DNA of 63,868 nt, filler included, from Blastocystis sp. subtype 4 (taxonomy: Eukaryota): the NCBI RefSeq assembly GCF_000743755.1. It is 12 parts of 12 records of this genome, joined end to end, with 100 filler letters (N's around TTAATTAATTAA, not from the genome) between each part and the next. Parts side by side here need not be neighbours in the genome. Positions count along the whole stretch, not along the records: positions 5,171 to 10,212 come from NW_014569069.1; 11 more parts are not named here. One strand, written 5' to 3'. The notes below the pieces were generated by a model. That model did no database searches, was not told where the DNA came from, and saw nothing but the letters and a program-made list of their open reading frames with translations. Below are positions 197 through 44,022 of the stretch, in pieces (positions within the stretch are counted from its first letter, which is position 1; every line of letters starts with the position of its first letter). The translations under genes and the position numbers were made by a program.

Positions 197-1568
197 ATGT
201 CCCACAAAGAGGCCATTGATTTTGAAAATGCACTCGATGGTGCGGGACCTCTGAAATCTGAAGTTGTTGCTCGCTGGCAACGAAAGATCCGTGACAAATC
301 TCAACAACAGGCTCAGTCTGTCCGAATTCAAATATTCTAGTGATGTGTAGAGTGGTCCTACAGTTGGAACCCATGATCAACTAGATATTGCTCGAAGTAG
401 TTATAACTTGACAGAAGAATCAAAATCATCGGAGCCACGTTCTGTTGATTCGGCTGTTCGTGTATTAGCCTATAAGGAAAGTGTTCCTACACCTGAAATC
501 GGATATCAGAATAGTCTGCGGATCCTATATTCCAAAGTAAATGAAAATGAACGGTTGACAGCGATCCCAACACGGCCGTTACCGCAATCTCCAGAGAAGA
601 CTTTGAATGCACCAGATTTGCGCAATGATTACTACTTGAACTTGTTAGATTGGGGATCCAACAACGTTTTGGCTGTTGCATTGGAGGACACCGTCTATCT
701 TTGGAATCCTTCCAGTGGTGGTGTGGATCAAATCCAAATATGTGATGATGGAAATTACATTTGTTCTGTTGCTTGGCTGAAAGATGGAGGAAATTACTTG
801 GCTGTCGGTACATCCAATAACGTGATTCAATTGTGGGACACGCAACAACACCGAAAGACACGAACAATGGGCGGTCATCAAGGTCGGGTAAGTAGTCTTG
901 CTTGGAACCATCATATTCTCAGTTCAGGAGGCAAAGACTCTATCGTAATCAACCATGATGTTCGTATCGCCAATCATATCTCTACTGTCTATCATGGTCA
1001 TGTCCAAGAAGTGTGTGGCCTTGCTTGGTCGCTTGACGGATCGTATCTTGCTTCAGGCGGAAATGATAACAAATTGTGCATTTACGATTCCTGTGCTGCA
1101 GGAGATGTTGATGCTACCTACATTCTCACAGATCATATGGCTGCTGTAAAGGCCCTTGCATGGTGTCCTTATCAGAGAAATGTACTTGCTACAGGAGGCG
1201 GTTCTGCAGATCGGTGCATTAAACTATGGAATGTGTCCACAGGGACGTTATTGAATAGTATGGACACTGGATCCCAAGTGTGCTCATTACGCTGGAATCC
1301 TCACGAAAAGGAACTTCTCTCCTCTCATGGATATGCCAAGAATCAACTATGTTTATGGAAGTATCCTAGTATGAGTTTAATCAAAGAGTTTTTCGGCCAT
1401 GAGTCTCGTATTCTTCATCTCGCGGTTTCTCCTGATGGAACTGTAGTCTGTTCGGCGGGTGCTGACGAGAAATTGTGTTTCTGGCGACTCTTCGGCACAA
1501 GTCGGACAGAAAAGAAGGGAATGAACTTTGATAATTCATCATATGCAAGTTTCGAACGTATTCGTTAG
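197..1568 (+). CDS. CDC20: APC/C activator Cdc20/Fizzy (WD40)
   Basis: ATG at 197, ARWQRK motif, 31-nt GT-AG intron 320-350, LNAPDLRNDYYLNLLDW, WD40 repeats, C-terminal IR tail. Confidence 0.93.
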
Positions 1569-1660
1569 AACCACGGTTTTTTTAGGATATCTTGTGTGTT
1601 CAAAACCAGTTGTTGTATTCATAATTGTCACCTTTTGTACTGTGACATTGTTTCCATCCC

Positions 1661-2407
1661 ATGAACCTAATGGATTCAGAGTTTGCTGGTCAACCGCCGA
1701 AGTTACCAGCATCAACGTATTATTCGGAAAGTGGTGATGGTCTACATCGTTCATCGACTACTCATTCAACTCTACCATACAGTGAGTTATCTTCGAGTCT
1801 TGGTGCTTCTTCTCTTTCTTCCAGCCGATTGCATTGTAAAATAGAGAGTGTCGTTAGTTCAGGTAGCAGCTACTCCTATAGTGGTAGTGGGTCACGCCGC
1901 AATTCGTATTCCTATGATTCTATCGAAAATGATAATATTGTCATGTCAAAGGACATCTCCCCTATTCGACGGCGCTTTTCTAATGATTCTCTAGACCAGA
2001 ATGTTCCTAAGAGTTCCCAAGGTGATATCATTTCTCCAAATCAAAGGAGTTCAATGAGTCACACCTATTATTCTGTTCCATCGAATGCAAGTTCGGAGAG
2101 TCTTGGTGATTCAATTCGCAACTCACTACCATTGAGTAGTTCTACATGGCAAGTAGTTCGCAAACCCTCAAGGGAATCCAATGTCACAAAGTATATATTT
2201 GTAAAATGTAAGAAGCGACATCCTTCAGAGAACAGCGATAGTGACTGTTCTCATAATCATTCGCAAAGTAAACGCAATAGCTTTGTCCTTGAAGAGAATA
2301 TTTCAGATCGCTCGACACCCGTTGTTGATAATTCATCTTTACGGGATATTTCTTCATCCGAACTGCTACGTATGTTAGATTCTGCATATGAATATGTGTT
2401 ATCTTGA
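1661..2407 (+). CDS. Serine-rich hypothetical protein
   Basis: 248-aa ORF followed by TGTTTGTT near 2416. Confidence 0.6.
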   Translation: MNLMDSEFAGQPPKLPASTYYSESGDGLHRSSTTHSTLPYSELSSSLGASSLSSSRLHCKIESVVSSGSSYSYSGSGSRRNSYSYDSIENDNIVMSKDISPIRRRFSNDSLDQNVPKSSQGDIISPNQRSSMSHTYYSVPSNASSESLGDSIRNSLPLSSSTWQVVRKPSRESNVTKYIFVKCKKRHPSENSDSDCSHNHSQSKRNSFVLEENISDRSTPVVDNSSLRDISSSELLRMLDSAYEYVLS

Positions 2408-2467
2408 TTGCAATTTGTTTGTTATCAATGCAAATTCGATGTGAAAGTTGTGCAAACAAACATATAA

Positions 2468-3289
2468 TCATTTCACATAGTTATAGGTCAATATGGATAC
2501 AACAAAAATAGTGATATTATCATAGTTGGGAATAGTTAAGGTTTCTGTCAAACCGCACACAATAGACACAATGAGTGCGTTCATTACATAATTCTTGTCT
2601 GCAATTCTCATGAGATTCTGTCTAGATATCAAATCATCAAACGGTTTCCACATGGAGAGATACTGACAGACACTGACAATACCCACTGTACTGAAAAAGA
2701 CGTAGGCAACTAGACCATACCATGATTTTGAACGGTTCCACCATAATGAACGATTACCACTTCGGATGGAACCAATCCAAGCTGCAAACCCATCTCCAAA
2801 TGACACCGTCATTATAATAAAGACTGCGTCCAACTGTTTCCAAAAGAAATATGTCACCAATGTCATAATCACACCATAGTGGACAGGTCCCATTGATAAC
2901 TCAGATGCTTTTCCCGTCCGGCTCATTGTTTTCACAATGACATCACTAGAGATGTATCCCTTCCCAACAACCCAAAAGACAATTGTAAACATAAAGGGAA
3001 CTAGATCATTAGACTACACATCGTCACAACACACTTGACATGGCTAAATACATTGCTTTTTCTGTATTGGGGAAAAGCGGCCAACACATCAAAAATACAG
3101 GTGCCATCACTACAAATAACGAATAAAATGCATATAAAGACAAATATGGAGTAGCTTTCTTGATACTGCTGATGAACACACATTGAAGTAACGAGTGATC
3201 ATAACAGAAAATGCAACTGCCGAGGTTGTTCCCAACGTATACAGGAACGCTTCTTGGTTGGTCAGAGGGAATGGACTGAATAGACCCAT
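2468..3289 (-). CDS. Phytol/farnesol/dolichol kinase-like membrane protein (CTP-dependent), intron-containing
   Basis: Motifs SRKLLHI, GPVHYG, GDGFAAWIG, KSWYG, DNITI across exons. Confidence 0.8.
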
Positions 3290-3340
3290 GAGATTGTGAC
3301 AAACAAACAAACGACCCACTAATCGTACACACCCAATTGA

Positions 3341-4730
3341 TCAAACAGAAAAGACTCTTTTGCCCCTTCACAAAGTGGAAGCATCTCTTTTAGCCTTATG
3401 TTCCTTTGCTTCAAATCTGCAATATAACCCTAGATTTCATTCCCCTTCAGTGTATTCACTTTCATTAATAAATCCATATCCGTCAAACGACCTTGAACCC
3501 GCCTACTTCGCATATGTCCATCGTATCGAGTACTAATCTTTATACAATGTGGCTACAATACCTCGGATGAGGAACATGTACAACAAAGGAGTGAAGTAAT
3601 ACTCGGAATGTATAATTCCTTTCACGTAATTGATATATCCAAATCAACTTGTTCATTCCATAATCGATATATCTCTCATCAAATGAAGGTAAAATGAAGG
3701 AACCCGAGATCATGTTCGATTAGGATATGTAAAGAAGAATCTCGCTTCACGACAACATATGGTTCATATCCCTCATTCTTAAAGCACTCCACATCAAAGA
3801 GATATTCTGAATGATTCGTTATGGATTCCCATCGATCGTAATCTGTTGATGTCTAATTCTCACTTCATTCCTCTTTTCATACATGTGTCAACTGCTGTTC
3901 TTTAAATCTCTCGCATGGTCCATACTTCAAACACGACATTAGTTCCATACGATGATGAGGAACCAAAAACAGATGTCTGAACCAGCATTTCTCCAAATCC
4001 AAGCAGACACCATCTTTCCGACGGTTGCTAACTCGTGTATTCTCGAGGACTCGGAATTGTTTACTGTTATAGTTCACTTCGTATGCAGGTATCACAATGG
4101 CCTGGTTTTGAATTTCTAAAATCTCTTTTGGAAGATCCTTGATCGTCTCATAGAGATCGGCTATATGTTACTTCTGACTCAATGCCAAACATGCTGGCCA
4201 CAGATCAATATCTGTTAGGAAGAAATGAGATGTATGAACTCCCTGAATAGCGACATTTCGCAGATGATTGATGGGATAATGCTCTGATGGATCGACCACG
4301 ATCGTTACATTTAACCGACTAGGAAATCGACTCTCAACAAGAAACGATTCCAATTGGCTTCTCTCATCTTCACTACGAACACAAACTGCTATACTCAAGA
4401 ATCTATATCATTATCCGTACACCAATCCCATTCCCATTCCAACGATGTACAATCTCATCAGCATACAATAGAAAACGATCCAGACTATTCCTTGAATCTC
4501 TCAATGGATTCTTACCTAGACTGAGAGACATAGGTCACATCAAAACTCTCTTTGTTTATTGTTTCTTCTTTTTCGCATTCTTCAGTCTCTTTGTTGCTAA
4601 ATAAAAGACTTCTAGAAATAAGATTCTTATCTTGGGAAACGAACAACAACAGCACAACTGTTGTCCCTATCCAAAACAGATTCGCAGATAAACCAAAGAG
4701 AAATCGTCTTTGGTTTCTAGTCCAAACCAT
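3341..4730 (-). CDS. LARGE/B4GAT1-like (GT49) glycosyltransferase, type II membrane protein, multi-exon
   Basis: N-terminal TM; YPINHLRNVA, FFLTDIDLWP (DxD), VIPAYEV, EPYVVVK. Confidence 0.8.
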
Positions 4731-5070: not shown

Positions 5071-5170
5071 NNNNNNNNNNNNNNNNNNNNNNNNNNNNNN
5101 NNNNNNNNNNNNNNTTAATTAATTAANNNNNNNNNNNNNNNNNNNNNNNNNNNNNNNNNNNNNNNNNNNN
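5071..5170. other. Artificial contig spacer (N run + TTAATTAATTAA); also at 10213, 15392, 24009, 29037, 34048, 39045, 44023, 49943, 54857, 59726
   Basis: Identical 100-bp linker with stops in all six frames. Confidence 0.98.
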
Positions 5171-5270
5171 GAAGAAATACATCAAGTTTGTACCAACTGT
5201 TGCTAATGATTATCAACTCATTCAATTCTTGAGTGATTCAAATATGAGTAAGAATCACTGGATTAATGAG

Positions 5271-5955
5271 AGGTCTGAGACCTAGCATGCACATCGGAAG
5301 CTACGGCGCTGGGTGCCGTGCTTCCTTGTGGTGATGCAATAATTGTGTGCTAAATGGTAGAGAAAATGATCAAGATGTGGGATTAAGAAGAACAGAATGC
5401 TTAATAATGTATACTAATTTACTTTGATACTAATATGCATTGATTATTAACTGGATAGAAAAATGGAAGATGGCTGGAGTGACGGGTAGTTTTAGAAAGT
5501 TTTATATAATATGCCAAAATGGAAATCGACCCATTTTTACCTTTCCATTTTGAAAGAGTTTTATGAAATCCACCCGTCATCCATCACTCCGTCACCTTTT
5601 AAGCCCATGATCAAGCCAAAAGATGGACCTATTTAAAGGAAAGGTGACGGGTTGATTTTGTCGTTTTCCATTTCCCCATACCAATTCATTTTGATGCAGT
5701 CATCCATCACTCAATCATCTTCCGTATTTCTATCCAGTTTTATGAACAACAAATTAACCCATATTTTCGGTCACACATTTGGTGGTTGTTCTTCACCCTG
5801 TTTGCTGTACCATCTTTAGTGTTAGAGAGTTTGTTTTACTTTGTTCACACCATTTAACCATTTTCTTTACCATTTAGCATACAATTATTGCGTCAGCACA
5901 AGGAGGTGCAGTGTTTGCGCTGCGCCCTCTGCAGTGCACGCTTGGCCTCAGGTCT
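5271..5955. mobile_element. Non-autonomous repeat-A derivative with two inverted, diverged hairpin ends and GTGACGGG-type iterons
   Basis: 5271-5470 is an imperfect inverted copy of about 5720-5955; both arms end in the A-type double hairpin; no ORF and no obvious TSD. Confidence 0.8.
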
Positions 5956-5984
5956 CTATACATCTTACAATGAACATTTTCAAT

Positions 5985-6692
5985 CCAACTTATCAAAATC
6001 GATAATACAAAGGCGTCTTATCACGCTTTCTTCAAAACACATTTTTCATTCATTCTTTCATATTTCATTCATATTCACATTTCTATTCGAATCATACTAT
6101 CCAAACATCCTTATTCACACTTCTATCTTCTCATCTATTCTTATCTATCACCAACCTAATCATCTTAGGCTGGTTTTCATTCCCTTCTTTACTCATCCCT
6201 TTCAATGATCGATTATCACTTCATTCATTTCTTGATAGTAAACAATCAGATTCACACTACCTTGTAATAGACTCGATTGTTCTTAACTTTCCCGAGGGGA
6301 CATCTTCATCTTATCAACCTCTAATCTGTATTCTTATGGTTCTCTATCATCTAACAACTATGTTCTCTTCTCATGATTTTGGTACTCATCATCTACTCTC
6401 ATTCACACAATGTCTCTTTCAGAACGGTGTCTCATCCATATACTCGGTCACCATTAGGACGTAACTTATGAATGTGTAATGGTACCATTCTCAGGGAAGC
6501 TTCGTGTTGCCAGGGTGTATGGTTGATTTGATGAAGAAGTCACCCTACTATTCTCCAACAGGAATAGTGGTTGGATTCATGAGCTGTCAAGCAATCACTC
6601 GAGACTTGGGCCACTCGGGAACTAGTCCGAGGCCTCGCAGGTATGGACGTTAAGTGCCCTCTAGGGCATCTATGTAGCGTGTATAGTGTTTA
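5985..6692 (+). repeat. Repeat B copy 1
   Basis: Homologous to 37126-37861 and 42659-43270; ends GGACGTTAAGTGCCCTCTAGGGCATCTATGTAG...AGTGTTTA. Confidence 0.9.
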
Positions 6693-6734
6693 ACAATAAC
6701 CCTTCCTTCATTGTCAACAAATAAGTCCAGTTTA

Positions 6735-9480
6735 CTAGAATACTTCACAACAACTATCATTCTTTAGTTGATTTGTGTTCCTCTGTCTTATGAAACGATC
6801 AAGAGAATCAGCATCTCAATGATTATTCATTATTCAATCACACTTGAACTATGCAGTTTATTCACACGGCCGAATGCACAATCCATCTGAATTCCTTCTT
6901 CAGTGAGTGATGGAATGTCTAATTCAAATTCAATATTATATCATACTCTCCAGTATCACTTTTCCCATATTCAATAAATTGTCACCATCTCCTTTGAGTG
7001 TAGATAAAGAAGGAAGATCTAGTTTTTCAATCATGCTCTTTCATACTCTTCATTATTAGTTGATTTGATTTTCTAGTGTCCCATTTACCTCTAAGAGACT
7101 CATATCCTAGAGTGATAGATTGAAGTTGAATCAAATCTCATTCATTATTCCATCATCAATGATACTCTCAAATACAATAGAATAACAATCATTGAATGCT
7201 TCTCTTCCCAATTCTATCATGTTGAGAGAAGGGAGATTAGACAAAATGAATCTTTCTTTTCCTACTCTCCCTTGAATAATAATGGATTTAACAGAACATA
7301 TTAGTTCTTCCATTTGACTGCTATCTGAAATCCAGAATGCAGATGTTTGATGTGATATCACGTTATTTGACGGAACTACTTCATTATTATTCTTGGTGAT
7401 GTAGTATTCAAGAGAATCAGCATCTTAATAACAATATAGTCTTTTTTTGTACTTGAACTGTCCATTTCTTTCACATAACCAAATGATCTTCTCATCTGTA
7501 TACTATCTTTAGTGAGTGATGGAATGTCTAATTCAAATTCAATTATCGATAATCACTATTCAATTGCACTTTGCCTATCCTTTCTAAACTGTAATAATCT
7601 CCTTTGAATGTAGATAGAGAAGGGAGATCTAATCAATCAATCATAATTACCATTCATACTTTTCATTATCAATTCATTTGTTTCTACATTACCATTATCA
7701 CCATATAGAGCCTTATTTCCAAGAATGATGGATTGAAGTCGAATCAGATCTCATTTATCATTCATTCAATCATTCATACTATCAAATACTATCCATTTAC
7801 AATTACAGAATGCACAACGATCTAATTGAATGGATATGAGAGAAGGTAGATTCTTCAATTCAAATGATTTATACCAATAGAATGATCCATCTTCAATGTG
7901 GATTTCACTCAATTGATCACAATTCATTATCACACATTTGCTTCCAATTCTATTACAGCAAATGAGTTCAAAGCTTTTCTTTCCGATGTACAATTTCTGC
8001 AATTCATTCAATCCATCAATCACAAATTGATCCATATTCTTAAAACAATCATTTCCAATCACAAGTCTCTCAATTCCATTCAAACAGTCAACATCAAATC
8101 CACTAAAATAATTTCCATATCCATCTTCAAATCGTTTGGTTGAAGCATATGCTCCTTCGATCCATCTTCCACTTCTAATCACTTCTCCATTCTCATTCAA
8201 TTCCTTTCCAGCTCCATGTCTCAATCCATTCTTCCATTCTCCAATATACGCAGCAGAGTATCCTTTGAATTCACTTCCATATCCTTCTCTCTTTCCATTC
8301 TTCCATCCACCTACATACAATGCACTCTTTCCATCATCTCCATATTCTTTACCTTCTCCTTCTCGAACAAATCCTTTCATATCTCCTTCAAATCCTCCTT
8401 CATATACTCTCATTCCATTATCATCATATTCAATCATACATTCTCCTTTCCATTCTCTCAATACTCTCATCATTACTCCATTCTTGTATTCACATTCTCG
8501 AACCATTCTTCCTCCTTCATACTCAAAACACTTACCATTCTTCAATAATCCAGATTCATCATATTCACTCACACTCAACAAATCTCCATTCATATTCACT
8601 TCTTTGAAGAATCCATCCATTCTTTCCATTTCAGGATGAATCACAAATCCATTCACCATATCTCCAAACCATACTCCTTCATACACCTTCTTTCCATTAT
8701 CATCAAACAATATCATTCTTCTTCCAATGAATTCTCGAATTACTCTCTTCATTCTTCCATTCTCATATACACATTCTCTCTTCAAGTGTCCTGATTCCAC
8801 TTCAAAACATATCCCATTCTTCATCCACTTATCATCATATTCACTCACACTCAACAAATCTCCATTCACACTTATCTCTGAATAGAATCCCTTCATTCCT
8901 TCTTGTTCTTTCAGTGCTACATATCGCTTTCCATTTTGATACAATCCTCTCCACACCTCATTTCCACTGTTATCATATTCTATCCACATTCCAACTTCCT
9001 TTCCTTTTGATACTCTTCCTTTCAATACTGTGTTTCCATACTTATTCATCTTGGTCACTTCTCCTTCACATTCATCATTCACAAACATCATTCTCATAAA
9101 TAGTGTTCCATCTTCTCTCACAATCATTCCAATTCCTTCTTTCTTTCCTTCATTCATTGATACTACCAACTCATATACATCATTATCTATCAATAATCCA
9201 ATAATTTCGTTTCCATTCAATTCATCACCATTCTTTACTTCAATACTCCTTATCTCACAATCACCAAGGAATTCAAGACATGAACTACTATTCCTAATAT
9301 CGATGTTACTCATATCAGTCTAAGAATCAATGAACAATTCATTACCCTTCATATTAATGAATTCATAATGAATATCATATGGAAGGAGGTTGACAATGAT
9401 TATCACTCATTCTATCCATATTCAACCATTCTATTCATATTCATCATTCCATTCCATTCATCTAATCTCACAATCAATCT
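6735..9480 (-). CDS. MORN-repeat plus BspA-like LRR protein, multi-exon, C-terminal CCEVF
   Basis: YEGGFEG/YVGGWKNGKREGYG MORN repeats in the 515-aa ORF, followed by LPSLISI-type LRR exons; start approximate. Confidence 0.8.
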
Positions 9481-10312
9481 TTTCATCGCATCATTCAATC
9501 ATTCATTCCCGTGATTCTAATCAGTTTATATCATTTCACATTACAATCAATCAAACATCAATACTAATTCTGTCATCATTCTTACCACAATTCGGATCCC
9601 CAATTACGCCATTCCACATTAGCCCATTTCATTCATTTCAATCCACATTCACTTTCATTCATATCTCATTATTCTACTATATTCTACTATCATCTCTTCA
9701 TTCCTATTCAATATTACTGAATACAATCACGGGGATATCATTCTCATCATTCATTACTCATATCATTCATTTCTTATTTCCATTTATATCTACACTCTCA
9801 TATCATATCAATTCTATTCATATCTCATCATCCATCAACATCACTTTGTTATCATTTCATTAATTCATATCTGTTGATTTCAATAGCTTTTGGAAGTTAT
9901 ATTCTCATTATGATTTCTAAGATTGAGCTGACAGAACTAAGGAACACCCTTCATGAATGATTTCCATGTAAAGAGTGTTGAAATGGCTGATTCAACAAAA
10001 CATGAAGAAGGAAATGCAGTGATTCTGTTTTCAGGAAAGCATGAAGGATACAAGATGAAAGTGAATTTGAAGAAAGGAATAAAGGGAAGGGAGTGATGTA
10101 TCGAGAGAACAATACAGTGTTTATGAAACCCTGATTTGTGAATGATATAGCAGAAGGAGAGTTCACAGAAAGGGATAGATAGGACTGTGATAAGGAAAGA
10201 ATGTTTGTATGANNNNNNNNNNNNNNNNNNNNNNNNNNNNNNNNNNNNNNNNNNNNTTAATTAATTAANNNNNNNNNNNNNNNNNNNNNNNNNNNNNNNN
10301 NNNNNNNNNNNN

Positions 10313-15302: not shown

Positions 15303-15491
15303 AATGAAAAAGATAATAAAAAGAGAGTATGTTTAAATAGTAGTTGATGTTATAAGGGGATTAAGGGGTAAAGATACTAGTTGATTAATGTNNNNNNNNN
15401 NNNNNNNNNNNNNNNNNNNNNNNNNNNNNNNNNNNTTAATTAATTAANNNNNNNNNNNNNNNNNNNNNNNNNNNNNNNNNNNNNNNNNNNN

Positions 15492-15615: not shown

Positions 15616-15648
15616 TTTAATCTACGATTAAATAGCTGCTATGCAGCT
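15615..15648 (+). terminator. Double hairpin directly after the penton-like stop codon
   Basis: ATTTAATC-TAC-GATTAAAT then AGCTGC-TAT-GCAGCT; a terminator role is inferred only. Confidence 0.4.
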
Positions 15649-15689
15649 TAATGGGAAGGTTTAAGCTGTTGATTATTCACTTTGTGTGA

Positions 15690-16514
15690 GGAGTAGTTTT
15701 GGAGTAGGTTCAAAAATACAACCTACTCCACATTTCATTCAAAAAGGCTCATTAAATGGCTTATTTATAGGGATTAAATCATTTTGGAGTAGGAGGAGTA
15801 GGAAGAGTAGGTTGAAAATTCAATTTGACAAAATGTTTTGGTAGAATTCTTCTTAAGAAATAGAAAACCAACCTACTCCAACATCAAATAATCCTCATAA
15901 TCAAGCTAATTTATGGGCTATTCTAAAGGAATTTGGAGTAGGTTTGATATTTGAGACTACTCTTGAAACCTACTCCAAGTTTCTCCAACCAATATGTAAT
16001 CGATTATACTAATCCCTAATAACAAGGATATGTTGAATAGTTGCTCCGCAGTTGCTCTGCAACCATTGATCTTTGATCAATTCGTTTAATGTGTTAAACT
16101 CCAAATTCTCCACTTCACTTCATTTCTCAAAAGTCTTTAAAGATCGACACCCATGCCCATTTATCAACACCCTTAAAACATCCTGCTAAATCTATTTGTT
16201 ACCCCATAATAAGTACCGATTATATTCTTGCATATATAACTGAATACAATCATGGTACTATTGAGTCATTACTTAACAACTATCTCCCGTATTTCTATTC
16301 AGTTATATGAACACCAAAATTAGACCATATTTTGGTCACAGTTTTAGCGTTTGTTCGTCACCCTGTTTACGGCACCATCATTTGTGTCAGAAAGTTTGTT
16401 TTACTTTGTTCATACCATTTAACTGATTACTTAACCATTTTGCACACATTTATTGCGTCAGCTCAAGGAGGTGCGGCGCCGCGCCCTCCGCAGAGCATGC
16501 ACGGCCTCAGGCCT
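15690..16514 (+). mobile_element. Repeat A copy (GGAGTAGG iteron array + terminal GC hairpin)
   Basis: Many GGAGTAGG/CCTACTCC words; ends GCGTCAGCTCAAGGAGG...GGCCTCAGGCCT. Confidence 0.9.
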
Positions 16515-16657
16515 CAACTCATTTTAATGTAACATTCGTCAATTACTACTTGAATAAAAGTGTCTGGGTTAAGTAGCTGTATGATTCTTATTGTTAATGT
16601 GGCAATCAATTACTCTCACAAAACAGAAGAATAACTCAGGATACTACTTCAACACTC

Positions 16658-19600
16658 TTACTCTTGAGGATCATACTTGTTCATCAATACGTTCGCTTTC
16701 TTTATGAATAACTCGTCTCGTTCAACAAGATTTCCATATTCTAGTTCGCTGTTCTTACCACCAAATCCGCGTACTAAATTGTATTTACCTTTTCCTGTGT
16801 GTGTCATGTTTGCCATTTTGCGAGCTTCTTCTTTGGGATCTGCTTTCTTGAACAGTACTCTGCCTTTTGCCTTGCCACCTTCCCACATATCATTTGCGAA
16901 GTCTTTAACCTTTTCAACCGTTGTCTGTTTCTGTATCGTATCTTTGTGGGCTTCAATATCCATTTCCAATGCTTTTATACAGTTCTTCAATGCAATAGTA
17001 CATTTGTTCACTTCTTCCCATGGAGTCATGTTGTTTTCTGGATTCACTTTTTGATCTCTTATATCCTTTCCACCAAAATGGGATGCATATTCAAGTTGTT
17101 GAAGATCTCTGACCAGTTTTCTTGTATCATCCACGTATTCTCTCACAATGAAGTAGGCTTGAAGTGTTTTGGATACATTATCTCATGATTAGTCACTCAT
17201 GATTCCATTACCATATGAAGGAGTGTCACTCTTCCAGAAAGGTCCTCCTCCGTTCTTGGGTACTCTCAATGAAACCGAATCAAGAGCTGGAACATCTACT
17301 TTTCATATTGCCACCATATTACTACTTTTAATCCAAACAGTTCTTGGATTCTCAAAAGAACCAGACTCACTGACGGACTGAATCACTTTGAATTCTGGAA
17401 GACCTACATGTTTTAATAACCTAAATGCTACAATTCAGTAGAAGAGAACATGAATAATCCTGAGCACCATACAAGGCTTTCTCCCCCAAGTAAAGCGTAC
17501 GCAGACTGTCCAAACCTAGTTGACACTAATACTTCTTCTCCTACTGTCCAAAACCGTTTCAGTTGAATGGTAGAAGGATTCACCTCCAAGATCGATCGTC
17601 TTCAGCGATGGCAAATCTATGATCAACAGTGGATTAAATATGAACTCCTCAATATGAAGGAAGCATGATAAAAGTTGCATGATTTCTTGTGTCTGTCACC
17701 AATTGTCAGATGTTGAAGGTTATCAAGATCTTCCAGAATGAACTCTCCGTAATCACTGAAACTGAAACGACCAATTGAAATCGTATCCAACGACTTGCAT
17801 TCGGTGATGGAGAATGATTTTCCTTCATCGCCTCCTCCATTTGGAGATTCGGTAAATGAGTTATCTCCTATCTCTACAGTCTCTAATAAAGGAAGATTAG
17901 ACAATTCAAAAGATTTGACTCTCAAACAACAACCGTCTCTAATAATAACGTGTTTCAACTGGAGGTATATATTGTTCCACTTAAATGACATCAATTCAGT
18001 GCAGCTATTGTCTTCAACGTAAAGAATGGTCACCTTCTCAGTGACCTTCTTTTTCCCATCGTAAGTAACCTTTAATCCATTCTTATCAATAACATCATTA
18101 TGCTTCTTCATCGATTCCTCGATTATCTTCTCGATCTCTTTTTCCAAGGTGTCAGTTAACAATGTTTCTTTACCATCCACTAGATGAGTCGCACTTTTGC
18201 ACTTCTCTTCAAAACCCTTCATTGCTTCATATTTGATTTTGTTCAATTTGACTGCAAACTCCTCACTATCCATGCTATCATCTGAAATGATGTTATCTGC
18301 TTCCTTCTTGAAACTCTACACAACACTACTCAAATAACACAATACATNTCCTTCAATGTCAATGGTCTTCTGCAGGTGCTCTCTGTATCGAGTTTGCAGT
18401 TTATCACTGCCCTTCTTCTTCTCTTCAAACAACTTCCATGCAATATCATTGGCCTTCTTATGGATTGCTTCCAAGTCAGTATTGCCATACACCATATCTG
18501 GGCGAATTCTCTTATTCATTTCTCGTTTATACATCTACTACTTAATTGAATATCATTCACCAACCTCACAACATTCATCAACAAGCTGACTCAGCTTTGC
18601 CATATACAGATTGTCCATGATGCTATTCGTATCTGGGAAATGCTTTTGTTCCATAAACAAATGAGCTTGTTGAACTGCAAATCTACTCTTAATATCGTTT
18701 CATTCACTCACTCAACAAATGTTTTGACAGTGATTGTTTCACCTCCAATCTTTCTTGGTTCAATTCCTTTTCTCACTCCATCACCTTGAATCACTCGATC
18801 AATGTAGTAACTCAACATTTGCATAAACTGAGGTTTGATTTCAGATATGGATCCTTCATAATCCAAATTCATAACATCTTCTCCAGGAGAAGGAAAACAG
18901 AACATATCGAATTCATTAAAGCATTCCTCAATCTCTTTCACTTTGAATGCATCTTATTCAGTCTATTTATACCCAATTGAATTCCTTGCTCAATACTAGT
19001 TCTCTTACCGTAGTTTTCAAAATCACGAAGGAGAAAGTCCAGATGCTGAAATGGTTTACCATCCTTCTTAGATACTTCCTTACTAAACTTGGAAAGAACA
19101 GAGAATTTCTTCAATTGATCTGTATTCATATTGCCCTTCTGATTGAAGATTGCATATGAAGATATAAGAGAACTCAACCCGAAAATACTGCAATTGAACT
19201 CATTCTTTGTATCTAAATCCCATAATCCTTGAGTGTCCATCAACAGAATGCAGATCCTCTCTCCATTCTTTCGAGTGATAACAAAAGGCTTATTCCAAAA
19301 CAAGATTCCTCGAGTATTCCTTTCTGTTCCAGGGCTGATTGATTTGATGTTTGACTTCTTCGTTTCGACATTCTCCATTGTGTCAAAGTCTTTAATCTTA
19401 TTGCCTTCTGCTAACATCCATCGTGGAATACCATTGTCAGTTAATGTCATATCCACATGACCTTTCTCTATGGTTTACGAACCGTATTGATGTCTCACTT
19501 CTGAGTTGTTCTAAATAGAGATTCAAGAAGTACAGAAAGAAGGATTTCCCACTTCGAGAAGGACCCATAATACAAAGAACTCCCACAGGAAGGTCTTCAT

Positions 19601-19745
19601 CTACCTGTGCTTCAACTCCACATCATTCCACTACCTCTGAGAATAACCCATTCAAAGACTTGTCTTTCACTTTATACGACTCCCCCTTTTCTTCAATGAA
19701 CTAAAACTCATAGAAACAAGTCATCCTGACCTGTAAATCAGACAT
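16658..19745 (-). CDS. Atlastin/GBP-like GTPase - helical - LRR - coiled-coil fusion protein 1, multi-exon
   Basis: ATG 19745; GPSRSGKS (P-loop), TRGILFW, LLMDTQG, FLLRDF; LRR exons (LPLLETVEIGDNSF). Confidence 0.8.
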
Positions 19746-19844
19746 GAGGCAAATTAATTATGACCATTCACTGGTTCTTAATAATTTGTTAATACTTCCG
19801 CGGATATATCACTCATTCAGAATCATCCAATCATCAGTGTCAAC

Positions 19845-19870
19845 AGTAGTAGTAGATTGACACATGTTAC
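19845..19870 (+). mobile_element. Repeat C terminus (Polinton-like AGTAGTAG end) at an insertion junction
   Basis: AGTAGTAGTAGATTGACACATGTTAC matches AGTAGTAGTGTTTTGACGCATGTTAC at 43938. Confidence 0.65.
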
Positions 19871-19871
19871 A

Positions 19872-20640
19872 AGGCCTGAGGCCAAGTATGCACCTCCTTG
19901 AGCTGACGCAACAAATGTGTGCAAAATGGTTAAGTAAACAGTCAAATGGTATGAATAAAGTAAAACAAACTTTCTAATACTAATGATGGTGCAGTAAACA
20001 TCGTGACGAACAAACGCTAAAACTGTGACCAAAAATTTGGTCTAATTTTGCTGTTCATATAACTGGATAGAAACACGGGAGATGGTTGTTAAGTAATGTG
20101 TCAATAATACCGTGATTGTATTCAGTTATATACGCACGAATTTATTTGGAGTTTATTATGGGGTAACAAATTGATTTAGCAGGATTGTTTTAAGGATGTT
20201 GATGTTTAAAGACTTTTGAGAAATGAAGTAAATTGGAGAATTCGGATTATTCAACCAATGGATGATACCATTGTTATTAGGGATTAGTATAATCGATTAC
20301 ATATTGATTAGTTCATTATGAGATTAACAATAATGGAGTAGGTTTCAAGAGTAGTCTCAAATTTCAAACCTACTCCAAATTCCTTTAGAATAGCCCATAA
20401 ATGAGCTTGATTATGAGGATTATTTGTTGTTGGAGTAGGTGGAGTAGGTTGGTTATTCTATTTCTTAAGAATTCTATCAAAACTTTTTGTCTAATTGAAA
20501 TTTCAACCTACTCTTCCTACTCCTCCTACTCCAAAATGAATGAATCCTATAATCAAGCCATTTAATGAGCCTTTTTGAAGGTAATTTGGAGTAGTATTTT
20601 TGAACCTACTCCAAAACTACTCCAAAACTACTCCAACAAA
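19872..20640 (-). mobile_element. Repeat A copy, directly downstream of the primase-helicase gene
   Basis: Inverted homolog of 15690-16514; hairpin partly deleted. Confidence 0.9.
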
Positions 20641-20694: not shown

Positions 20695-23600
20695 TCAAAC
20701 TTCACAATCACATACATGCAACAAGTTATAGACCACAAGATTATTACATTTTGTCGGACATTTTCTTATATACTGTGGATACTTCGATAGTTCTAACATG
20801 AATGATTTTGCACTTAGTTTATATCCATTATGATAGCTGCAACAGTAACTGTTAAACGCTTGTCCCAGACTTTTTGCAGGAATCATATATCCCTCAGTAA
20901 TGTATCTGATTGCTCTTCTTTGCTTATATTTTGACGTACAATACACATCAATCTCCGTGTCATCTTCAGATAATTGTTGAAGCCATTCTTCAACTGGATC
21001 AACAGATGCATCAATAATGTTCTGCATATATTCAGTGTCTTGGATTTCCAAGATATCTTCATCTGTGTATCTGACTTTGTTAAAGTAATTGTACAAACCA
21101 TGGCTGCTTCTTCCAAACATCGATTGTCTTAGCAAAGAAAGGCTGAGTGATGTATTGATCAGGCATGAAGTTTAAAGCACTAAATGCATTAATTCGAGCA
21201 TTACCATTAGCAACATCAAATGAAAATCCATTTGCATTGTTTGTTGTAGCAATGATTCGACTACGCATTGTGTATGTATAAGCTTGAATGTTCTTTCTGT
21301 TAGCAACCCTGTGTTTAGTACCATCAATGTAACTCTTCATCACATCAACGATATCTTTGCCAAATTCGGAAGCACGAGCTTCATTGATGTTCACAAGCAA
21401 TGTATTCTCAAATGGAACTCGATGAGCTCCAAGCAAATCATCCCTATTATTACATTCAACCACATATTCATCACCAATTATCTGACTGATCATTTTGATC
21501 AACAATCCTTTGCCTTGTCTGCATCTACTGTAGAATAGAATGCCAACAGGCAACAAATTAGCAGGATCTTGAATCATTTGAGCTACAAACTTCTTCACAT
21601 ATTCACAATATAATATATCACCAGAAATGTTGAGCATTGCCAAGATATAGATTCTCATGAATATAGGATGAAAGTTGATGTACATCTTCATCTGATCTGT
21701 TAACGCAGGAATCATGTCCATGAAATCATTGATCATAGGTACATATTCAGATAGATCAGGAACAGGATCAGTTGAACGAATATCTGGATTGTATCCTTTG
21801 AATGTGTTAAGCACTTTCTCACCAGTTGAAGGATCTCGTATCACTTCAACTGAACCACCACCAACTTTGTTGCATGGAATGAAATCTGCTCTGTTAGCAA
21901 CTCTTCTGATATTGAAATATGCATTGATAGCATCAATAGTTGGTTCTTTTGGTCCCTTGATGTCTTTGTCTTCGAAATATGATCTTGTCCCATAGATCTT
22001 ACCGATATTCTTCCATGTACCAACAATATCACTGTTTCGTTCAATATGTCCATTCACATAGCATGAATTGACAGGCGTTTGTAAGAACACAATTCGCTGT
22101 GATAGATAGCTCTTAATAATACTGATTGTCTTATTTCTATCTTTCCTATACTCATCTTCACTATCATAAGCACCAACACCTGGCTTCTTCATGTATCTCT
22201 TACAGATCTTCATTAATACCCAATCCTGAACAATCGGAAGATCTGCATCTCCACGCATGACCTCAGTATCATCATCAATTTCGTCATCACTGAAATCACA
22301 AATCGCATTCAAATCATATCTTCCATATTTCTCAGAACAGAAATCATCATAGAATGAAGGATTTGTATCTTTCACAATCTTCATCACAGTACCCATTGTA
22401 TAGATTTGATCTCGATCTGTCTTATATCCATTGTAGTATGTTTGTCTGAATGAATCAATATCATTGTTCTTAGGACGTCCAATGATTTGATTCCATTTCT
22501 CACAAACAATCTCATAACAGCCCATCCTTCATCATAATCATCTGTATCTTCAAAGTTTCTTGCAACTGCAGTGATTATAGGCAATTTGATTGTAGTATAG
22601 ATTCCTTCTGTAATAACACTGTAGTATAGATTCCTTCTGTAATAACACTATCAGGAATATGATCAAGCAGATCACGAACTTCTTTAACTGTGAACTTTTG
22701 ATGCTCTTCATTGTTTGATATTTCATCATGCTCTGTATTGTTTTTAACATCGTTAACACAGCTGTAAGCTGTGTTTAAAGATGGTTGTACTTGTTTGATA
22801 TTATCATTTGATGATGGAGGTTCAGGAAGTGTAAATCCTTCAGGAAGTTTAAAGGGTAAAATCTTGTTCTTATCAAAATCACTAAACACTGGTTGATCAG
22901 AATAATCAACATATTCATCTCTCAAAATGCAATCTGTGTATTTTGAATAATCAGCATCACCAAATTCTTTATCACCCAATTCAACGATATCAAATGATGA
23001 ACTAGTATAACTATCTTCTTCCATATCATAACATAGATACATATGACTTTCAGGCTTACAACTTCCATCTATCCAAAACACTCGTTTAGCGCCAAACATA
23101 CATTTATCAACAATTCTTTCAACATTGCCATAGAAGATCTTCTTAACTTCAATATCATTGATGATGTAGTTATATGTTGCTTCACGATGTTCATCATCTG
23201 TAAGTGCTTCAAGAATAATATGTGCTCCATGCTTATAGAGTTGCTTTGCAACATTTTGAGTGCTACTCAAATCTCCACATTGATATGGTGGTCTGATATA
23301 CAGATTGCTGTTGGTAGAGAACATTTCACACAATCGCTTATTGAATTGTTTGAATTGTTCTATTGGAACATCTTCAGATCCATTAGAATAATCCAGATCA
23401 ATACAAATCTTTCTTTTGCCTGTAAGAACAATACCAACAGCTACTGTATTTGTATATTCAATATCACAGTAATCTGCATGCCATTTGATAGCATACTGGA
23501 TAGATAGATTGTTGAAGAATTCATTCTTATCGTTTGGAACGTAAAATCCCATAGGGACTAGTTGTTTGTTGGGAGTACCATACCATACACACGAACATAG

Positions 23601-23758
23601 AATTGATGTTTATCTATTACAGTTTTTGGTTCACTCTTATAATAACATCCATTATTCCCATTTAAAAAGGAATGTAGATAATTAATTAGAGGATTTGCAA
23701 TTTGTTTTTCTTTGCTATTAGTAGGATTAATCGTTGTTCTATCAATTGTATCGCTCAT
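20695..23758 (-). pseudogene. Viral-type AEP primase - SF3 (D5-like) helicase - C-terminal winged-helix fusion, about 1000 aa, intronless, at least four frameshifts
   Basis: KICIDLDY, KHGAHII, VDKCMF..WIDGSCKP (AEP); VLNTFKGY, SRCRQGKG (Walker A), VNINEA (Walker B), IIATTNN (motif C); IPAKSLGQAFNSYC..SAKSF. Confidence 0.85.
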
Positions 23759-23859
23759 TTACTTATAGTGGAATAATCTATTAATTGATTATTTCACTTA
23801 GAATTTGATGATTTAGTTTTGATTCACAAAGTGACTGCAAATCTATGATTTGCTGGGTA

Positions 23860-24008
23860 GTTAGTGTAGTAGTTAGTATAGTAGGTTACAAAGAAGTAGG
23901 CTACTACACTTAATCCCTCATAAACAAGCTTGATTATGGGGGTATTCTTTAATTTATGAGGGTTTAACTGACTTGTTTATGAAGGTGTAGTAGGTGTAGT
24001 AGCCTGTT
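23860..24008. promoter_or_regulatory. Second iteron array (GTAGTAG type) upstream of the primase gene, cut by contig end
   Basis: GTAGTAGG/CTACTAC words around the scaffold CCTCATAAACAAGCTTGATTATGGG shared with repeat A. Confidence 0.6.
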
Positions 24009-36117: not shown

Positions 36118-36862
36118 TGTGATTGCGAAATTTGATAAGATATTTGTGATTCTATTTAACTATGATACTTGTGAATGCAAATCATAGATTACTAATGGAG
36201 TAGTGTTGGAGTAGGTTTGGAGTAGGTTCAAAAATACAACCTACTCCGGAATTCCTTCAAAATGGCTTATAAACTGGCTTGATTATAGGGATTAATTCAA
36301 TTTGGAGTAGGAGGAGTAGGAAGAGTAGGTTGAAGATTCAATTAGACAAAAAGTTTTGGTAGAATTCTTCTTAAGAAATAGAAAACCCAACCTACTCCAC
36401 CTACTCCAACCTACTCCAACATCATATAATCCTCATAATGAAGCTAATTTATGGGCTATTTGTAAGGAATTTGGAGTAGGTTTGAAATTTGAGACTACTC
36501 CTGAAACCTACTCCAAGCTACTCCAATCAAATTGTATCAATCATTACTGAATGCAATCACGGTATTATTGACACATTTACTTAACAACAACTGCTATGCA
36601 GCTATTTAATCTACGATTAAATCTCCCATATTTCTATTCAGCTATATGAACACCAAAATTATACCATATTTTTGTCACAGTTTTAGCGGTTGTTCGTCAC
36701 CCTGTGTTACTACACCATCTTTTAGTGTCAGAAAGTTTGTTTTACTTTGTTCATACTATTTGACTGATTACTTAACCATTTTGCACTCCTTCTTTAGCGT
36801 CAGCTCAAGGAGGTGCGGCGCTTGCGCCGCGCCCTCCGCAGAGCACGCACGGCCTCAGGCCT
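36118..36862 (+). mobile_element. Repeat A copy retaining the last codons of the primase-helicase (CDCEI*)
   Basis: TGTGATTGCGAAATTTGATAA matches the CDCEV* end at 20695; then iterons and the full hairpin. Confidence 0.9.
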
Positions 36863-37125
36863 CTTCACATACTCTATGCATCATATTCAACCGCCTTTCA
36901 TACCTAACTCTACATTCCATTCATATTCTGACAATACTGCAGGTTTCATCTCTCAGACACTCAGCTAAGCTTCAATTCTTATACTTCAATTCAAACCGCT
37001 TTCATCACTCATGCGAAATATACTATCCAATACTACAGATCTTACTCACAACTTGATCTCCACTAATACTTCGAACTTCATCCTTTCTATAATACCATTC
37101 AATTATACATCTTACTACTAATCAA

Positions 37126-43270: not shown

Positions 43271-43394
43271 AAAAGATATAGGAGGCATTGATTTGAATCT
43301 CCTATAGTAGATGAATGTATTTTGTTGGGTATAAGGGTATATAAAGAGTACATAAAGAGATACAGGATAAGGAGACGAATGAAGTTATGCAGGG

Positions 43395-43937
43395 AGGCCT
43401 GAGGCCGTGCGTACTCTGCGGAGGGCGCGGCGCAAGCGCCGCACCTCCTTGAGCTGACGCAATAAATGTGTACAAAATGGTTAAGTAAACAGTCAAAATG
43501 GTGTGAACAAAGTAAACATACTTTCTGACACTAAAAAGATGATGCAGTAAACAGGGTGACGAACAAACGCAAAAAATGTGTGACCAATAATATGGATTAT
43601 CTTTGATGTTCATATAACTGAATAGAATAACGGATATAAGGGTTTAGTATAATCGAAACCATATTGATAGGGAGTAGCTTGGAGTAGGTTTCAGGAGTAG
43701 TCTCAAATATCAAACCTACTCCAAATTCCTTACAAATAGCCCATAAATTAGATTCATTATGAGGATTATTTGATGTTGGAGTAGGTGGAGTAGGTGGAGT
43801 AGGTTAGATTTTCTATTTCTTAACAAGAATTCTATCAAAAACTTTTGTCTAATTGAATTTTCAACCTACTCTTCCTACTCCTCCTACTCCAAAATGAATT
43901 AATCCCTATAAATAAGCCATTTTATGAGCCATTTATG
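43395..43937 (-). mobile_element. Repeat A copy, truncated by repeat C
   Basis: Full hairpin 43395-43460 plus iterons. Confidence 0.9.
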
Positions 43938-44022
43938 AGTAGTAGTGTTTTGACGCATGTTACGTATTTTTTTCATCCAGACAAACCGTCGCAAACATGG
44001 GCCTCCAACCCTGGGTAGCTAT
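43938..44022 (+). mobile_element. Repeat C (Polinton-like AGTAGTAGT terminus), cut by contig end
   Basis: AGTAGTAGTGTTTTGACGCATGTTACGTATT...CCAGACAAACCGTCGCAAACATGGGCC. Confidence 0.7.

What the first reader, a model, noticed from the sequence alone, without database searches (positions are those of the whole stretch)
5460..5720. Iteron word swapped on a conserved scaffold: at least three origin specificities
Seen: standard A copies read CCTCATAATCAAGCTAATTTATGGGCTATTCTAAAGGAATTTGGAGTAGGTTTG, with GGAGTAGG/CCTACTCC repeated many times in both orientations. The 5271-5955 copy keeps the scaffold (CCCATGATCAAGCCAAAAGATGGACCTATTTAAAGGAAAGGTGACGGGTTG), but its repeated words are GTGACGGG/GATGGATGAC types. 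The array at 23860-24008 keeps part of the scaffold with GTAGTAG words. Inference: concerted replacement of binding sites, as expected if each subfamily's primase-helicase winged-helix domain recognises its own origin, like plasmid incompatibility groups, here in a eukaryote.
Basis: partly seen in the sequence, partly recalled or inferred. Interest (0 to 1): 0.8.

Follow-up and report, generated by a model that had tools for sequence, protein, structure and literature searches.

The report
Swappable origin-like repeats in protist mobile element
Short DNA words repeated in both arms of a small mobile element of a gut protist change between subfamilies while the sequence around them stays alignable, and they are likely the docking sites where the element's own primase-helicase would start DNA copying, a design known from bacterial phage satellites.

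Summary
GGAGTAGG occurs 31 times (0.74 expected) in four arrays. The 5469-5720 array has TGACGGG-type words around a weakly but significantly alignable scaffold island. The 23845-24008 array has GTGTAGTAG words.

The context needs correcting. The window is 12 unrelated contigs joined by N spacers. The arrays are not simply "primase 3' ends". They sit in both inverted arms of a mobile element of about 4.2 kb whose only gene is an AEP-primase/SF3-helicase. 5270-5956 is a complete gene-less miniature of it.

Seven gut-metagenome loci hold the same element and show the A, A' and C arrays to be collinear, with the word replaced at homologous places (10 of 10 words T>G between two types).

The window's gene is 99.3% identical to C-type copies until 81 codons before the stop. 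Identity then falls to 66% and the downstream array changes type. So the C-terminal domain, predicted winged-helix-like, and its adjacent array moved as one module.

The layout matches SaPI/P4 iteron origins: words facing each other across a 56-61 nt AT-rich spacer, starting 61 nt after the stop codon. Binding and replication are untested, only three protein/word pairs exist, two loci have mismatched arms, and the B type has no known protein. Verdict: a new eukaryotic variant of a known design.

The parts
5270..5956 (+). Complete gene-less miniature element (B type): both termini in inverted orientation, with the B array between them
   Evidence: The terminus motif is at 5270-5282(-) and 5944-5956(+). 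The arms are collinear, with 48 of 55 columns identical at offsets 53-108 from each end. The left boundary 5269|5270 is marked in 4 of 4 runs by a deeper contig that continues differently.
5469..5720 (+). B-type word array: word, 86-nt AT-rich spacer, inverted words, scaffold island, word, spacer, inverted word
   Evidence: A homologous array is at L005 3807-4060.
5606..5656 (+). Scaffold island shared with A arrays (near-palindromic CCCAT..ATGG core) plus the following word
   Evidence: Local alignment to A1 scores 33, reached by 1 of 500 shuffles.
5712..5956 (+). Terminal module of B with GC hairpin and terminus GGCCTCAGGTCTC
   Evidence: 80-82% identical to the A terminal modules. Alignment; fold.
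15690..16031 (+). A1 array (GGAGTAGG words), with no primase-helicase gene upstream
16163..16515 (+). Linker and terminal module of A1, ending at terminus GGCCTCAGGCCTC
19871..20203 (-). Terminal module of the right arm of the gene-bearing element
20265..20634 (-). A2 array, right arm; its first word lies 61 nt after the stop codon
20698..20940 (-). Last 81 codons (winged-helix-like domain), of A type; identity to C-type copies falls to 66% here
20695..23758 (-). Primase-helicase gene, a decayed copy read in three frames
   Evidence: Against the runs' contigs the window copy lacks 11 nt after 21094 and 4 nt after 22513 and carries 5 extra nt at 23576 (each in 4 of 4 runs). Its 29 nt at 22591 are absent in 2 of 4 runs.
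23845..24008 (-). Left arm array of the same element, C type (GTGTAGTAG words), cut by the contig end
   Evidence: It aligns with the left arms of L006-L008.
36118..36552 (+). A3: 90-nt remnant of the gene's 3' end followed by the fullest A array
36621..36863 (+). Terminal module of A3 with hairpin and terminus
43394..43938 (-). A4: array cut at its gene-proximal side by another repeat, plus terminal module and terminus

Best explanation
The word arrays are real and lie in both inverted arms of a small single-gene mobile element, and they are likely iterons: sites that the predicted winged-helix tail of the element's own primase-helicase would bind to open a replication origin in each arm.

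Shown:
- The element is terminus, GC hairpin, terminal module, array, gene, array, module, hairpin, terminus. It measures about 4.2 kb, composed from two loci.
- Its only ORF has an AEP PrimPol fold, an SF3 helicase domain and a confidently folded C-terminal domain.
- Each array holds clusters of 8-10 nt words facing each other across a 56-61 nt AT-rich spacer, starting 61 nt after the stop codon.
- The subfamilies (A TGGAGTAGG, A' GTGGAGTAG, C GTGTAGTAG, B GTGACGGG) keep the layout and the scaffold and change the word at every site.
- The last 81 codons and the adjacent array were exchanged together between lineages.

Inferred:
- The C-terminal domain reads the word.
- Two helicase rings would load head to head on the AT-rich spacer, as in SaPI satellites.
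- Different words define separate replication specificities.
- The gene-less miniature (5270-5956) and the truncated copies would be replicated or mobilised in trans by a matching protein.
For: Anatomy. In loci L006, L007 and L008 the gene is flanked on both sides by C-word arrays, with the hairpin and terminus beyond them. The L008 left arm (reverse complement) and the L007 right arm share 489 of 509 columns.

Protein.
- DUF5906 (SF3 helicase) scores E 7e-9.
- The N-terminal model matches ASFV and human PrimPol: best E 2.9e-5, 25 matches at E<=0.001, model pLDDT 61.
- C-terminal residues 50-145 of the model have pLDDT 84-94.
- By my reading of the titles, most of the 50 VIA rows are winged-helix domains, at Z 4.7-6.1. 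They include the phage P4 origin-binding domain (Z 5.3, 76 aligned), ORC/Cdc6 winged helices and the ASFV PrimPol C-terminus.

Layout. The central spacers are 56-61 nt between the innermost words, with GC 0.23-0.30 against 0.378 for the window. This matches the SaPI description of iterons just after rep, on both sides of an AT-rich centre and pointing in opposite directions, read by a C-terminal winged helix (PMC9371898, introduction passages).

Concerted change. All 10 of 10 words of the L007 array align to L009 words with the same T>G change, and at 8 of the 10 places the A-type row also carries its GGAGTAG core. Consensus A against C shares 130 of 203 columns; A' against C shares 208 of 258.

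Constraint. Variable columns in words against elsewhere are 2/63 against 31/122 for the C type (p 8e-5) and 7/58 against 34/145 for the A type (p 0.08).

Module exchange.
- Window against L007: gene body 99.3% (18 mismatches), last 243 nt 65.7%, array 75%.
- L007 against L009: 88.3%, 88.5% and 83%.
- At protein level, by my count from the alignment, 40 of the last 84 residues are identical against 51 of 52 just before.
- The junction is bridged in an independent run (X7 record 27, 20782-20979, 0 differences). An X6 contig leaves the window at the same point, 20941.

A distant marine relative (L013, 23% identity) also has arrays of one word on both sides of its ORF.
Against: - No binding, melting or replication has been measured.
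- The winged-helix call rests on middling Z scores (under 8), and Foldseek found no match at E<=0.001.
- Only three protein/word pairs exist. In each, the domain and the array are adjacent, so co-transfer may be plain linkage.
- L009's domain is 84% like the C type (14 of 85 residues differ), yet its word core GGAGTAG equals that of the A type, whose domain is only 48% identical. The mapping is therefore not simple.
- Arms are mismatched in 2 of 5 loci where both are visible: window piece 4 (C left, A right, decayed gene) and L005 (A left, C right, intact 1017-aa ORF).
- The arrays are inside terminal inverted repeats and are kept by a miniature element, which also fits end recognition for transposition.
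- 3 of 4 A arrays in the window have no gene beside them.
- No protein is known for the B words.
- A profile of the protein finds no solved structure by sequence, SaPI Rep included (0 hits at E<=1).
Confidence: 0.55

Rival explanations
1. The words are subterminal end-recognition sites for mobility, as in CACTA, hAT or Mutator transposons. They would be bound by a recombinase supplied in trans, or by the same winged-helix tail acting in end synapsis rather than origin opening.
For: The arrays lie within ~505-nt terminal inverted repeats, in both orientations, at both ends. A 687-bp miniature element keeps termini and array but no gene. Its left boundary is an insertion boundary in 4 of 4 runs.
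Against: The ~4.2-kb unit holds one ORF and no transposase or integrase. No target-site duplication is visible at the one insertion that could be compared with empty copies (read by eye). The head-to-head clusters across an AT-rich spacer, starting right after the ORF, are the satellite-origin layout. The exchange breakpoint sits at the DNA-binding domain of the replication protein.
Confidence: 0.2
2. The arrays are transcription control elements: a promoter or enhancer upstream and a terminator downstream of the gene, read by host factors.
For: One array lies about 105 nt upstream of the ATG and the other 61 nt after the stop codon. The scaffold island is a conserved near-palindrome that could be a host-factor site.
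Against: Host-factor sites would not be expected to change word in concert between co-resident subfamilies, nor to be swapped together with the protein's C-terminal domain. The same array sits at both ends in inverted orientation as part of the terminal repeat.
Confidence: 0.1
3. The arrays have no function. They would be repeat-prone DNA homogenised by slippage and gene conversion, and the word differences would be drift fixed by conversion.
For: Word copy number varies between copies: 1 to 3 inverted words in A1, A2 and A3. The two arms of an element are kept alike, so conversion or copying between repeats does occur.
Against: The words are separated by unique, alignable scaffold rather than being tandem. 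Words vary less than spacers. All 10 of 10 words carry the same change between two lineages that differ at 19% of other aligned positions. A distant relative has the same gene-flanking design with an unrelated word.
Confidence: 0.1

Closest known systems
SaPI/PICI replication modules of staphylococcal and enterobacterial phage satellites (Rep or fused PriRep plus iteron ori)
   Same: An SF3 helicase initiator, fused to a primase in some satellites. A C-terminal winged helix that reads short iterons. The origin lies immediately after the ORF, with iterons on both sides of an AT-rich centre pointing towards each other, and island-specific words (PMC9371898, introduction passages).
   Different: Here the host is a eukaryote and the primase is of the AEP type. 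The array is duplicated in both terminal inverted repeats of a 4.2-kb element that has no integrase or packaging genes. There is no detectable sequence similarity to solved Rep structures. Function is untested.
Phage P4 alpha primase-helicase with ori and crr
   Same: One protein combines primase, SF3 helicase and a C-terminal winged-helix origin-binding domain. The solved P4 domain 1ka8 is among the fold matches (Z 5.3). Octamer iterons lie at two separate cis sites (recalled, not from a call).
   Different: The P4 primase is not of the AEP type (recalled). P4 is a circular or integrated satellite with many genes. Here the two sites are mirror-image arms.
ASFV C962R / NCLDV D5-like primase-helicases and those of polinton-like viruses
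   Same: The domain order is shared: AEP PrimPol, then SF3 helicase (DUF5906), then a C-terminal winged-helix-like domain. The best fold matches are ASFV PrimPol for the N-terminus (E 2.9e-5) and for the C-terminus (Z 5.0).
   Different: Those proteins sit in viral genomes of 15 kb to hundreds of kb with capsid genes (PMC10120064 passages). Here the gene is alone between the termini. Close relatives in the viral contig collection are lacking (best 21-24% identity).
TIR transposons with subterminal repeats and their MITEs
   Same: Long terminal inverted repeats, short words in both orientations near the ends, gene-less miniature derivatives, and insertion into other repeats.
   Different: No transposase gene and no target-site duplication was seen. 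The encoded protein is a replication initiator.

Membership tests
SaPI/PICI-type Rep-ori module | SF3 helicase initiator | tested here: met
   DUF5906 scores E 7e-9 to 1.3e-8 in the window ORF, L007, P0002 and P0003.
SaPI/PICI-type Rep-ori module | C-terminal winged-helix DNA-binding domain | tested here: inconclusive
   AF2 pLDDT is 84-94 over residues 50-145. VIA top rows are mostly winged helices by my reading of the titles, at Z 4.7-6.1, which the tool calls middling. Foldseek has no match at E<=0.001.
SaPI/PICI-type Rep-ori module | Iterons immediately downstream of the ORF, at least two on each side of an AT-rich centre, facing each other | tested here: met
   The first word lies 61 nt after the stop. 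There are 3 forward words, a 56-61 nt spacer of GC 0.23-0.30, then 1-4 inverted words.
SaPI/PICI-type Rep-ori module | Sequence homology to SaPI Rep/PriRep | tested here: not met
   A profile of 5 relatives against all PDB chain sequences gives 0 hits at E<=1.
SaPI/PICI-type Rep-ori module | Cognate, specific binding and protein-dependent replication | not testable with these tools
   Needs EMSA or footprinting and a replication assay.
D5/ASFV C962R-like AEP primase-helicase | N-terminal AEP PrimPol fold | tested here: met
   Foldseek gives E 2.9e-5, prob 1.00, to ASFV PrimPol, with 25 matches at E<=0.001. Model mean pLDDT is 61 and its core 65-92. Invariant D119, D121 and H168 appear in the alignment; I read these as the catalytic motifs.
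Polinton-like virus / virophage / transpoviron | Capsid, packaging ATPase or several genes between the terminal repeats | tested here: not met
   A single ORF of 1003-1017 aa lies between arms of about 585 nt. No single locus shows both termini, so the 4.2-kb unit is composed from L007 and L008.
Class II TIR transposon / MITE | Terminal inverted repeats | tested here: met
   489 of 509 columns are identical between the left and right arms. The B element has both termini.
Class II TIR transposon / MITE | Transposase gene in the autonomous copy | tested here: not met
   The only ORF is the primase-helicase. Pfam finds no transposase or integrase above threshold.
Class II TIR transposon / MITE | Target-site duplication | tested here: inconclusive
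   One case only. The flank ...GGATTAATGA|element|TATACATC... compares with empty copies ...GGATTAATGA|TACTACAG... and shows no duplication by eye, but the empty copies are paralogues.

The most novel reading that the evidence does not exclude
This is an undescribed class of eukaryotic selfish DNA. It is a 4.2-kb plasmid-like replicon that lives integrated in a protist genome, carries only an initiator primase-helicase, and has an iteron origin in each terminal arm. Recombination shuffles a cassette of DNA-reading domain plus iterons. This creates incompatibility-like specificity groups and leaves origin-only miniatures that parasitise matching initiators.
Probability: 0.35. Interest if true: 0.8.

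Novelty: new variant of a known kind. Interest (0 to 1): 0.62.

Why it matters
How the many primase-helicase-bearing DNA elements and small viruses of protists start replication is unknown. This family offers a compact case that can be tested directly. It has one protein, two mirror-image candidate origins, at least three natural word variants, and a natural domain swap that says which 81 residues to test. If the reading holds, origin specificity in a eukaryotic mobile element evolves by the same cassette exchange as in bacterial satellites and plasmids. It would also give trichomonad-like protists, which lack good episomal vectors, a candidate self-replicating module.

Tried and rejected
The words of the 70%, 48% and 40% relatives therefore stay unknown.
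- The protein scan of viral contigs gave only 21-24% relatives.
- The 16-base terminal-module pattern gave 120+ hits in genome contigs and 31 in viral contigs. None of the fetched loci has word arrays or a terminus at low GC, so these are chance matches and the pattern was too short.
- Earlier-findings look-ups by place and by sequence returned nothing.
- PHROG 'DNA primase' hits fall on the helicase part, not the N-terminus, so I did not use them as evidence for a primase.
- Contig depth: the A-type C-terminal segment (20708-20851) has no cover in X1 and X4 and about half the body's depth in X6 and X7. A hole in contigs proves nothing, so I draw no conclusion.
- Phasing of left arm, domain and right arm from Logan contigs failed, because no piece spans the gene.
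- An empty site for the B element at high identity was not found as a joint. Only paralogous copies of the flank continue without it.
- I considered that the arms bound a GBP-LRR gene cassette (A1> gene <A2, and piece 8). I rejected this because B and the L007/L008 loci show the termini pointing outward from the gene-bearing unit.
- The species cannot be named. The window's GC is 37.8%, against 29.5% reported for Tritrichomonas musculus (PMC11978803 passages).
- One literature search failed on a term that was too short and was not repeated.
Foldseek was used instead.

Full report
**What the window is.** The 63,868 bases are twelve contigs of about 5 kb, joined by N44-TTAATTAATTAA-N44 spacers. 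Sequence on either side of a spacer is not known to be linked. The ORFs are eukaryotic in character: WD40/Cdc20-like, HSP70, guanylate-binding-protein domains, and MORN and BspA-like leucine-rich repeats. The public runs that hold the 5171-10212 piece best are labelled mouse gut metagenome. I take the organism to be a gut protist, probably trichomonad-like; this is an inference. I do not name a species, because the window's GC is 37.8% while 29.5% is reported for Tritrichomonas musculus (PMC11978803, passages).

**The observation.** GGAGTAGG occurs 31 times against 0.74 expected, all within four arrays: A1 15690-16031, A2 20265-20634 on the minus strand, A3 36195-36552, and A4 43635-43938 on the minus strand.
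- In 5469-5720 the words are GTGACGGG and relatives. Window-wide that word is at chance level (15 found, 15.5 expected), but four of the fifteen sit within 170 nt. Four 8-mers recur three times or more there, and 0 of 300 shuffles do so.
- The scaffold island 5606-5656 aligns to A1 with a local score reached by 1 of 500 shuffles (11 of 500 against A3).
- The 23800-24008 array aligns to A1 with 0 of 500 shuffles reaching the score.
The B scaffold match is modest on its own and is strengthened by position: it lies directly upstream of a 245-nt module that is 80-82% identical to the A copies.

**Anatomy.** Each array is followed by a variable linker and a conserved module of about 250 nt. The module ends in a GC-rich hairpin and the motif GGCCTCAGGCCTC, after which the copies diverge. 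That motif has 6 matches within 2 mismatches against 0.27 expected.
- The hairpin folds better than shuffles in 3 of 4 copies tested (0 to 3 of 200 shuffles fold as well; the B copy does not stand out, 72 of 200). By my reading it keeps its outer stem through paired changes (GCTC/GAGC against GCAC/GTGC).
- 5270-5956 has this terminus at both ends in inverted orientation and no gene, so it is a complete miniature element.
- In 4 of 4 runs, a contig 2.5 to 28 times deeper than the B-element contig in the same run covers 5171-5269 and then continues with other sequence. 5269|5270 is therefore a true insertion boundary within a high-copy repeat. By eye the continuation is alignable with the element's right flank, and no target duplication is visible.

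**The gene.** Only A2 follows a gene (20695-23758, minus strand). It reads in three frames. Against contigs of four runs the window copy lacks 11 nt after 21094 and 4 nt after 22513 and has 5 extra nt at 23576 (each in 4 of 4 runs). It also has a 29-nt duplication absent in 2 of 4 runs. It is a decayed copy.
- Pfam finds DUF5906, an SF3 helicase family.
- An AlphaFold model of the N-terminal 310 residues (mean pLDDT 61, core 65-92) matches ASFV and human PrimPol (best E 2.9e-5, 25 matches at E<=0.001).
- The last 100 residues fold with pLDDT 84-94. Foldseek gives no match at E<=0.001.
- An exhaustive structural search lists mostly winged-helix domains (my reading of the titles) at Z 4.7-6.1. 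Among them are RFX, ORC/Cdc6, the phage P4 origin-binding domain (Z 5.3) and the ASFV PrimPol C-terminus (Z 5.0). The tool rates such Z values as middling, so the domain is winged-helix-like but not proven.

**Relatives.** An all-against-library search found 395 proteins at E<=0.001, but only four at E<=1e-30 (99, 70, 48 and 40% identity), all unnamed. A metagenome scan returned 13 loci, seven of them close.
- Six of these are 96-99% identical in DNA to the window's gene, and one (L009) is 86-91% identical in its aligned segments.
- They show what the window alone could not. In L006, L007 and L008 the gene is flanked on both sides by arrays of GTGTAGTAG words, with the hairpin and terminus beyond them.
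- The left arm of L008 (reverse complement) and the right arm of L007 share 489 of 509 columns.
- The unit is therefore about 585 nt of arm, a 1003-1017-codon ORF (intact in L005, L006 and L007), and about 585 nt of arm, roughly 4.2 kb in all. It is composed from two loci, because none shows both termini.
- The window's 23845-24008 array is the left arm of the element whose right arm is A2.

**Word replacement on a common scaffold.** I aligned fourteen arrays: eight C type, one A' (L009, GTGGAGTAG) and five A type. They are collinear, and words fall at the same places.
- All 10 of 10 words of L007's array align to L009 words carrying the same T>G change, and at 8 of the 10 places the A-type row also has its GGAGTAG core.
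- Consensus A against C shares 130 of 203 aligned columns; A' against C shares 208 of 258.
- Within types, word columns vary less than the rest: 2/63 against 31/122 for C (p 8e-5) and 7/58 against 34/145 for A (p 0.08). Many C rows may be the same element seen in different assemblies, so that test is not made of independent copies.
- A B-type array with the same spacer and a scaffold island closer to A's also lies outside the C array in L005 and L006.

**The domain and the array move together.** Between the window and L007 the gene body is 99.3% identical (18 mismatches in 2751), the last 243 nt 65.7%, and the array 75%. Between L007 and L009 the three values are 88.3, 88.5 and 83%.
- The body and the 3' module therefore have different histories, with a breakpoint at 20941.
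- In the protein model this breakpoint lies just before the first strand of the C-terminal domain.
- At protein level, by my count from the alignment, 40 of the last 84 residues are identical, against 51 of 52 just before.
- An independent run bridges the junction without a difference (X7 record 27). An X6 contig departs from the window at exactly 20941.
- The three readable pairs are: A domain with TGGAGTAGG, C domain with GTGTAGTAG, and the L009 domain (14 of 85 residues different from C, eight of them in the terminal hairpin and tail) with GTGGAGTAG.

**How it most likely works.** In the central module, three forward words and one to four inverted words face each other across 56-61 nt of GC 0.23-0.30. 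The first word lies 61 nt after the stop codon. This is the published layout of SaPI satellite origins, where a C-terminal winged helix of the SF3 helicase Rep reads iterons set on both sides of an AT-rich centre just after the rep ORF (PMC9371898, introduction passages). I therefore rate at 0.55 the reading that the words are iterons for the element's own protein, that each arm is an origin, and that the domain-plus-array cassette sets specificity. The binding, the melting and the specificity are all inferred.

**What speaks against it.**
- The domain and the right array are neighbours, so a crossover moves both whether or not they interact.
- Both arms are visible in five loci. In two of them the arms differ in type: window piece 4 has C left and A right with a dead gene, and L005 has A left and C right with an intact gene. 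Contigs in two runs also join an A-type left arm to the gene's 5' end. Because the gene bodies are 99% identical over 2.8 kb, short-read assemblies could have produced such hybrids, and I could not phase them.
- The A and A' words share a core although their domains differ greatly.
- The arrays are part of the terminal repeats and survive in a miniature element, which fits end recognition for mobility equally well (rival, 0.2).
- Transcriptional control and non-functional homogenised repeats are less likely (0.1 each).

**Comparison and novelty.** By function the closest systems are SaPI/PICI Rep-ori modules and phage P4 alpha with ori and crr. By protein architecture they are ASFV C962R and other D5-like primase-helicases.
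- The element is not a member of the SaPI family by sequence (0 PDB sequence hits at E<=1).
- It lacks the capsid and other genes of polinton-like viruses (PMC10120064 passages) and the transposase of TIR transposons.
- Four literature searches listed no paper describing a single-gene primase-helicase element with iteron-bearing terminal repeats in a eukaryote. None of the 12 papers listed holds all four terms.
- The two trichomonad genome papers I searched by term do not mention primase or helicase. Their supplements were not examined.
- Earlier notes of this scan describe the same design in phages and satellites, and once beside the primase-helicase of a polinton-like virus. These are unchecked leads, not evidence.
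- I rate this a new eukaryotic variant of a known design, interest 0.62.

Noticed in passing
window, spacers at 5071-5170, 10213-10312, 15392-15491, 24009-24108 and eight more: The window is a chain of 12 contigs joined by N44-TTAATTAATTAA-N44. Features that seem to span pieces are artefacts of concatenation.
   Followed up: yes
window 43939-44022 and 34148-34310: Another repeat, ending ...ACGTAACATGCGTCAA, cuts the A4 array and recurs at the start of piece 7. It is probably the end of a different mobile element.
   Followed up: no
window 5171-5269 + 5957-6692, 37122-37861, 42656-43214: A high-copy repeat F (contig depth up to about 700 in run X1) lies beside or around three arm termini. A further terminus-like loose end abuts position 6366 in run X6. 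F may be a preferred target or simply abundant.
   Followed up: partly
window 16515-19871 and 39337-43394: Arm termini face genes of one GBP-plus-leucine-rich-repeat family (25-60% protein identity between pieces 4 and 8). In piece 4 two arms point at the gene from both sides.
   Followed up: partly
L013 452-585 and 3597-3752: A distant marine relative (23% identity, 952-aa ORF at 588-3446) has arrays of GGGTTCAAG on both sides of the gene, all in one orientation. This hints that gene-flanking word arrays are widespread in this protein family.
   Followed up: partly
window 36797-36863, 5890-5956; L007 3775-3845; L009 3412-3479: A ~50-nt GC-rich hairpin lies 10-15 nt inside each terminus. By my reading it has paired changes in its outer stem between subfamilies. 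The 13-nt terminus is itself made of nested palindromes.
   Followed up: partly
window 15620-15660 and 36590-36625: Two small palindromes (GCTGCTATGCAGC and TTTAATCTACGATTAAA) occur together before the A1 array and after the A3 array. They form a movable linker module of unknown role.
   Followed up: no
L005 3650-4100 and L006 3380-3640: In two loci the C array continues outward into a B-word array instead of the terminal module. The 4 kb beyond L005's right arm mirrors the 4 kb before L006's left arm. This is either very long inverted flanks or an assembly path error through the inverted arms.
   Followed up: partly
window 34300-35300: About 1 kb of low-complexity GGTTCTTGG-like repeats lies upstream of the truncated A3 copy.
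   Followed up: no
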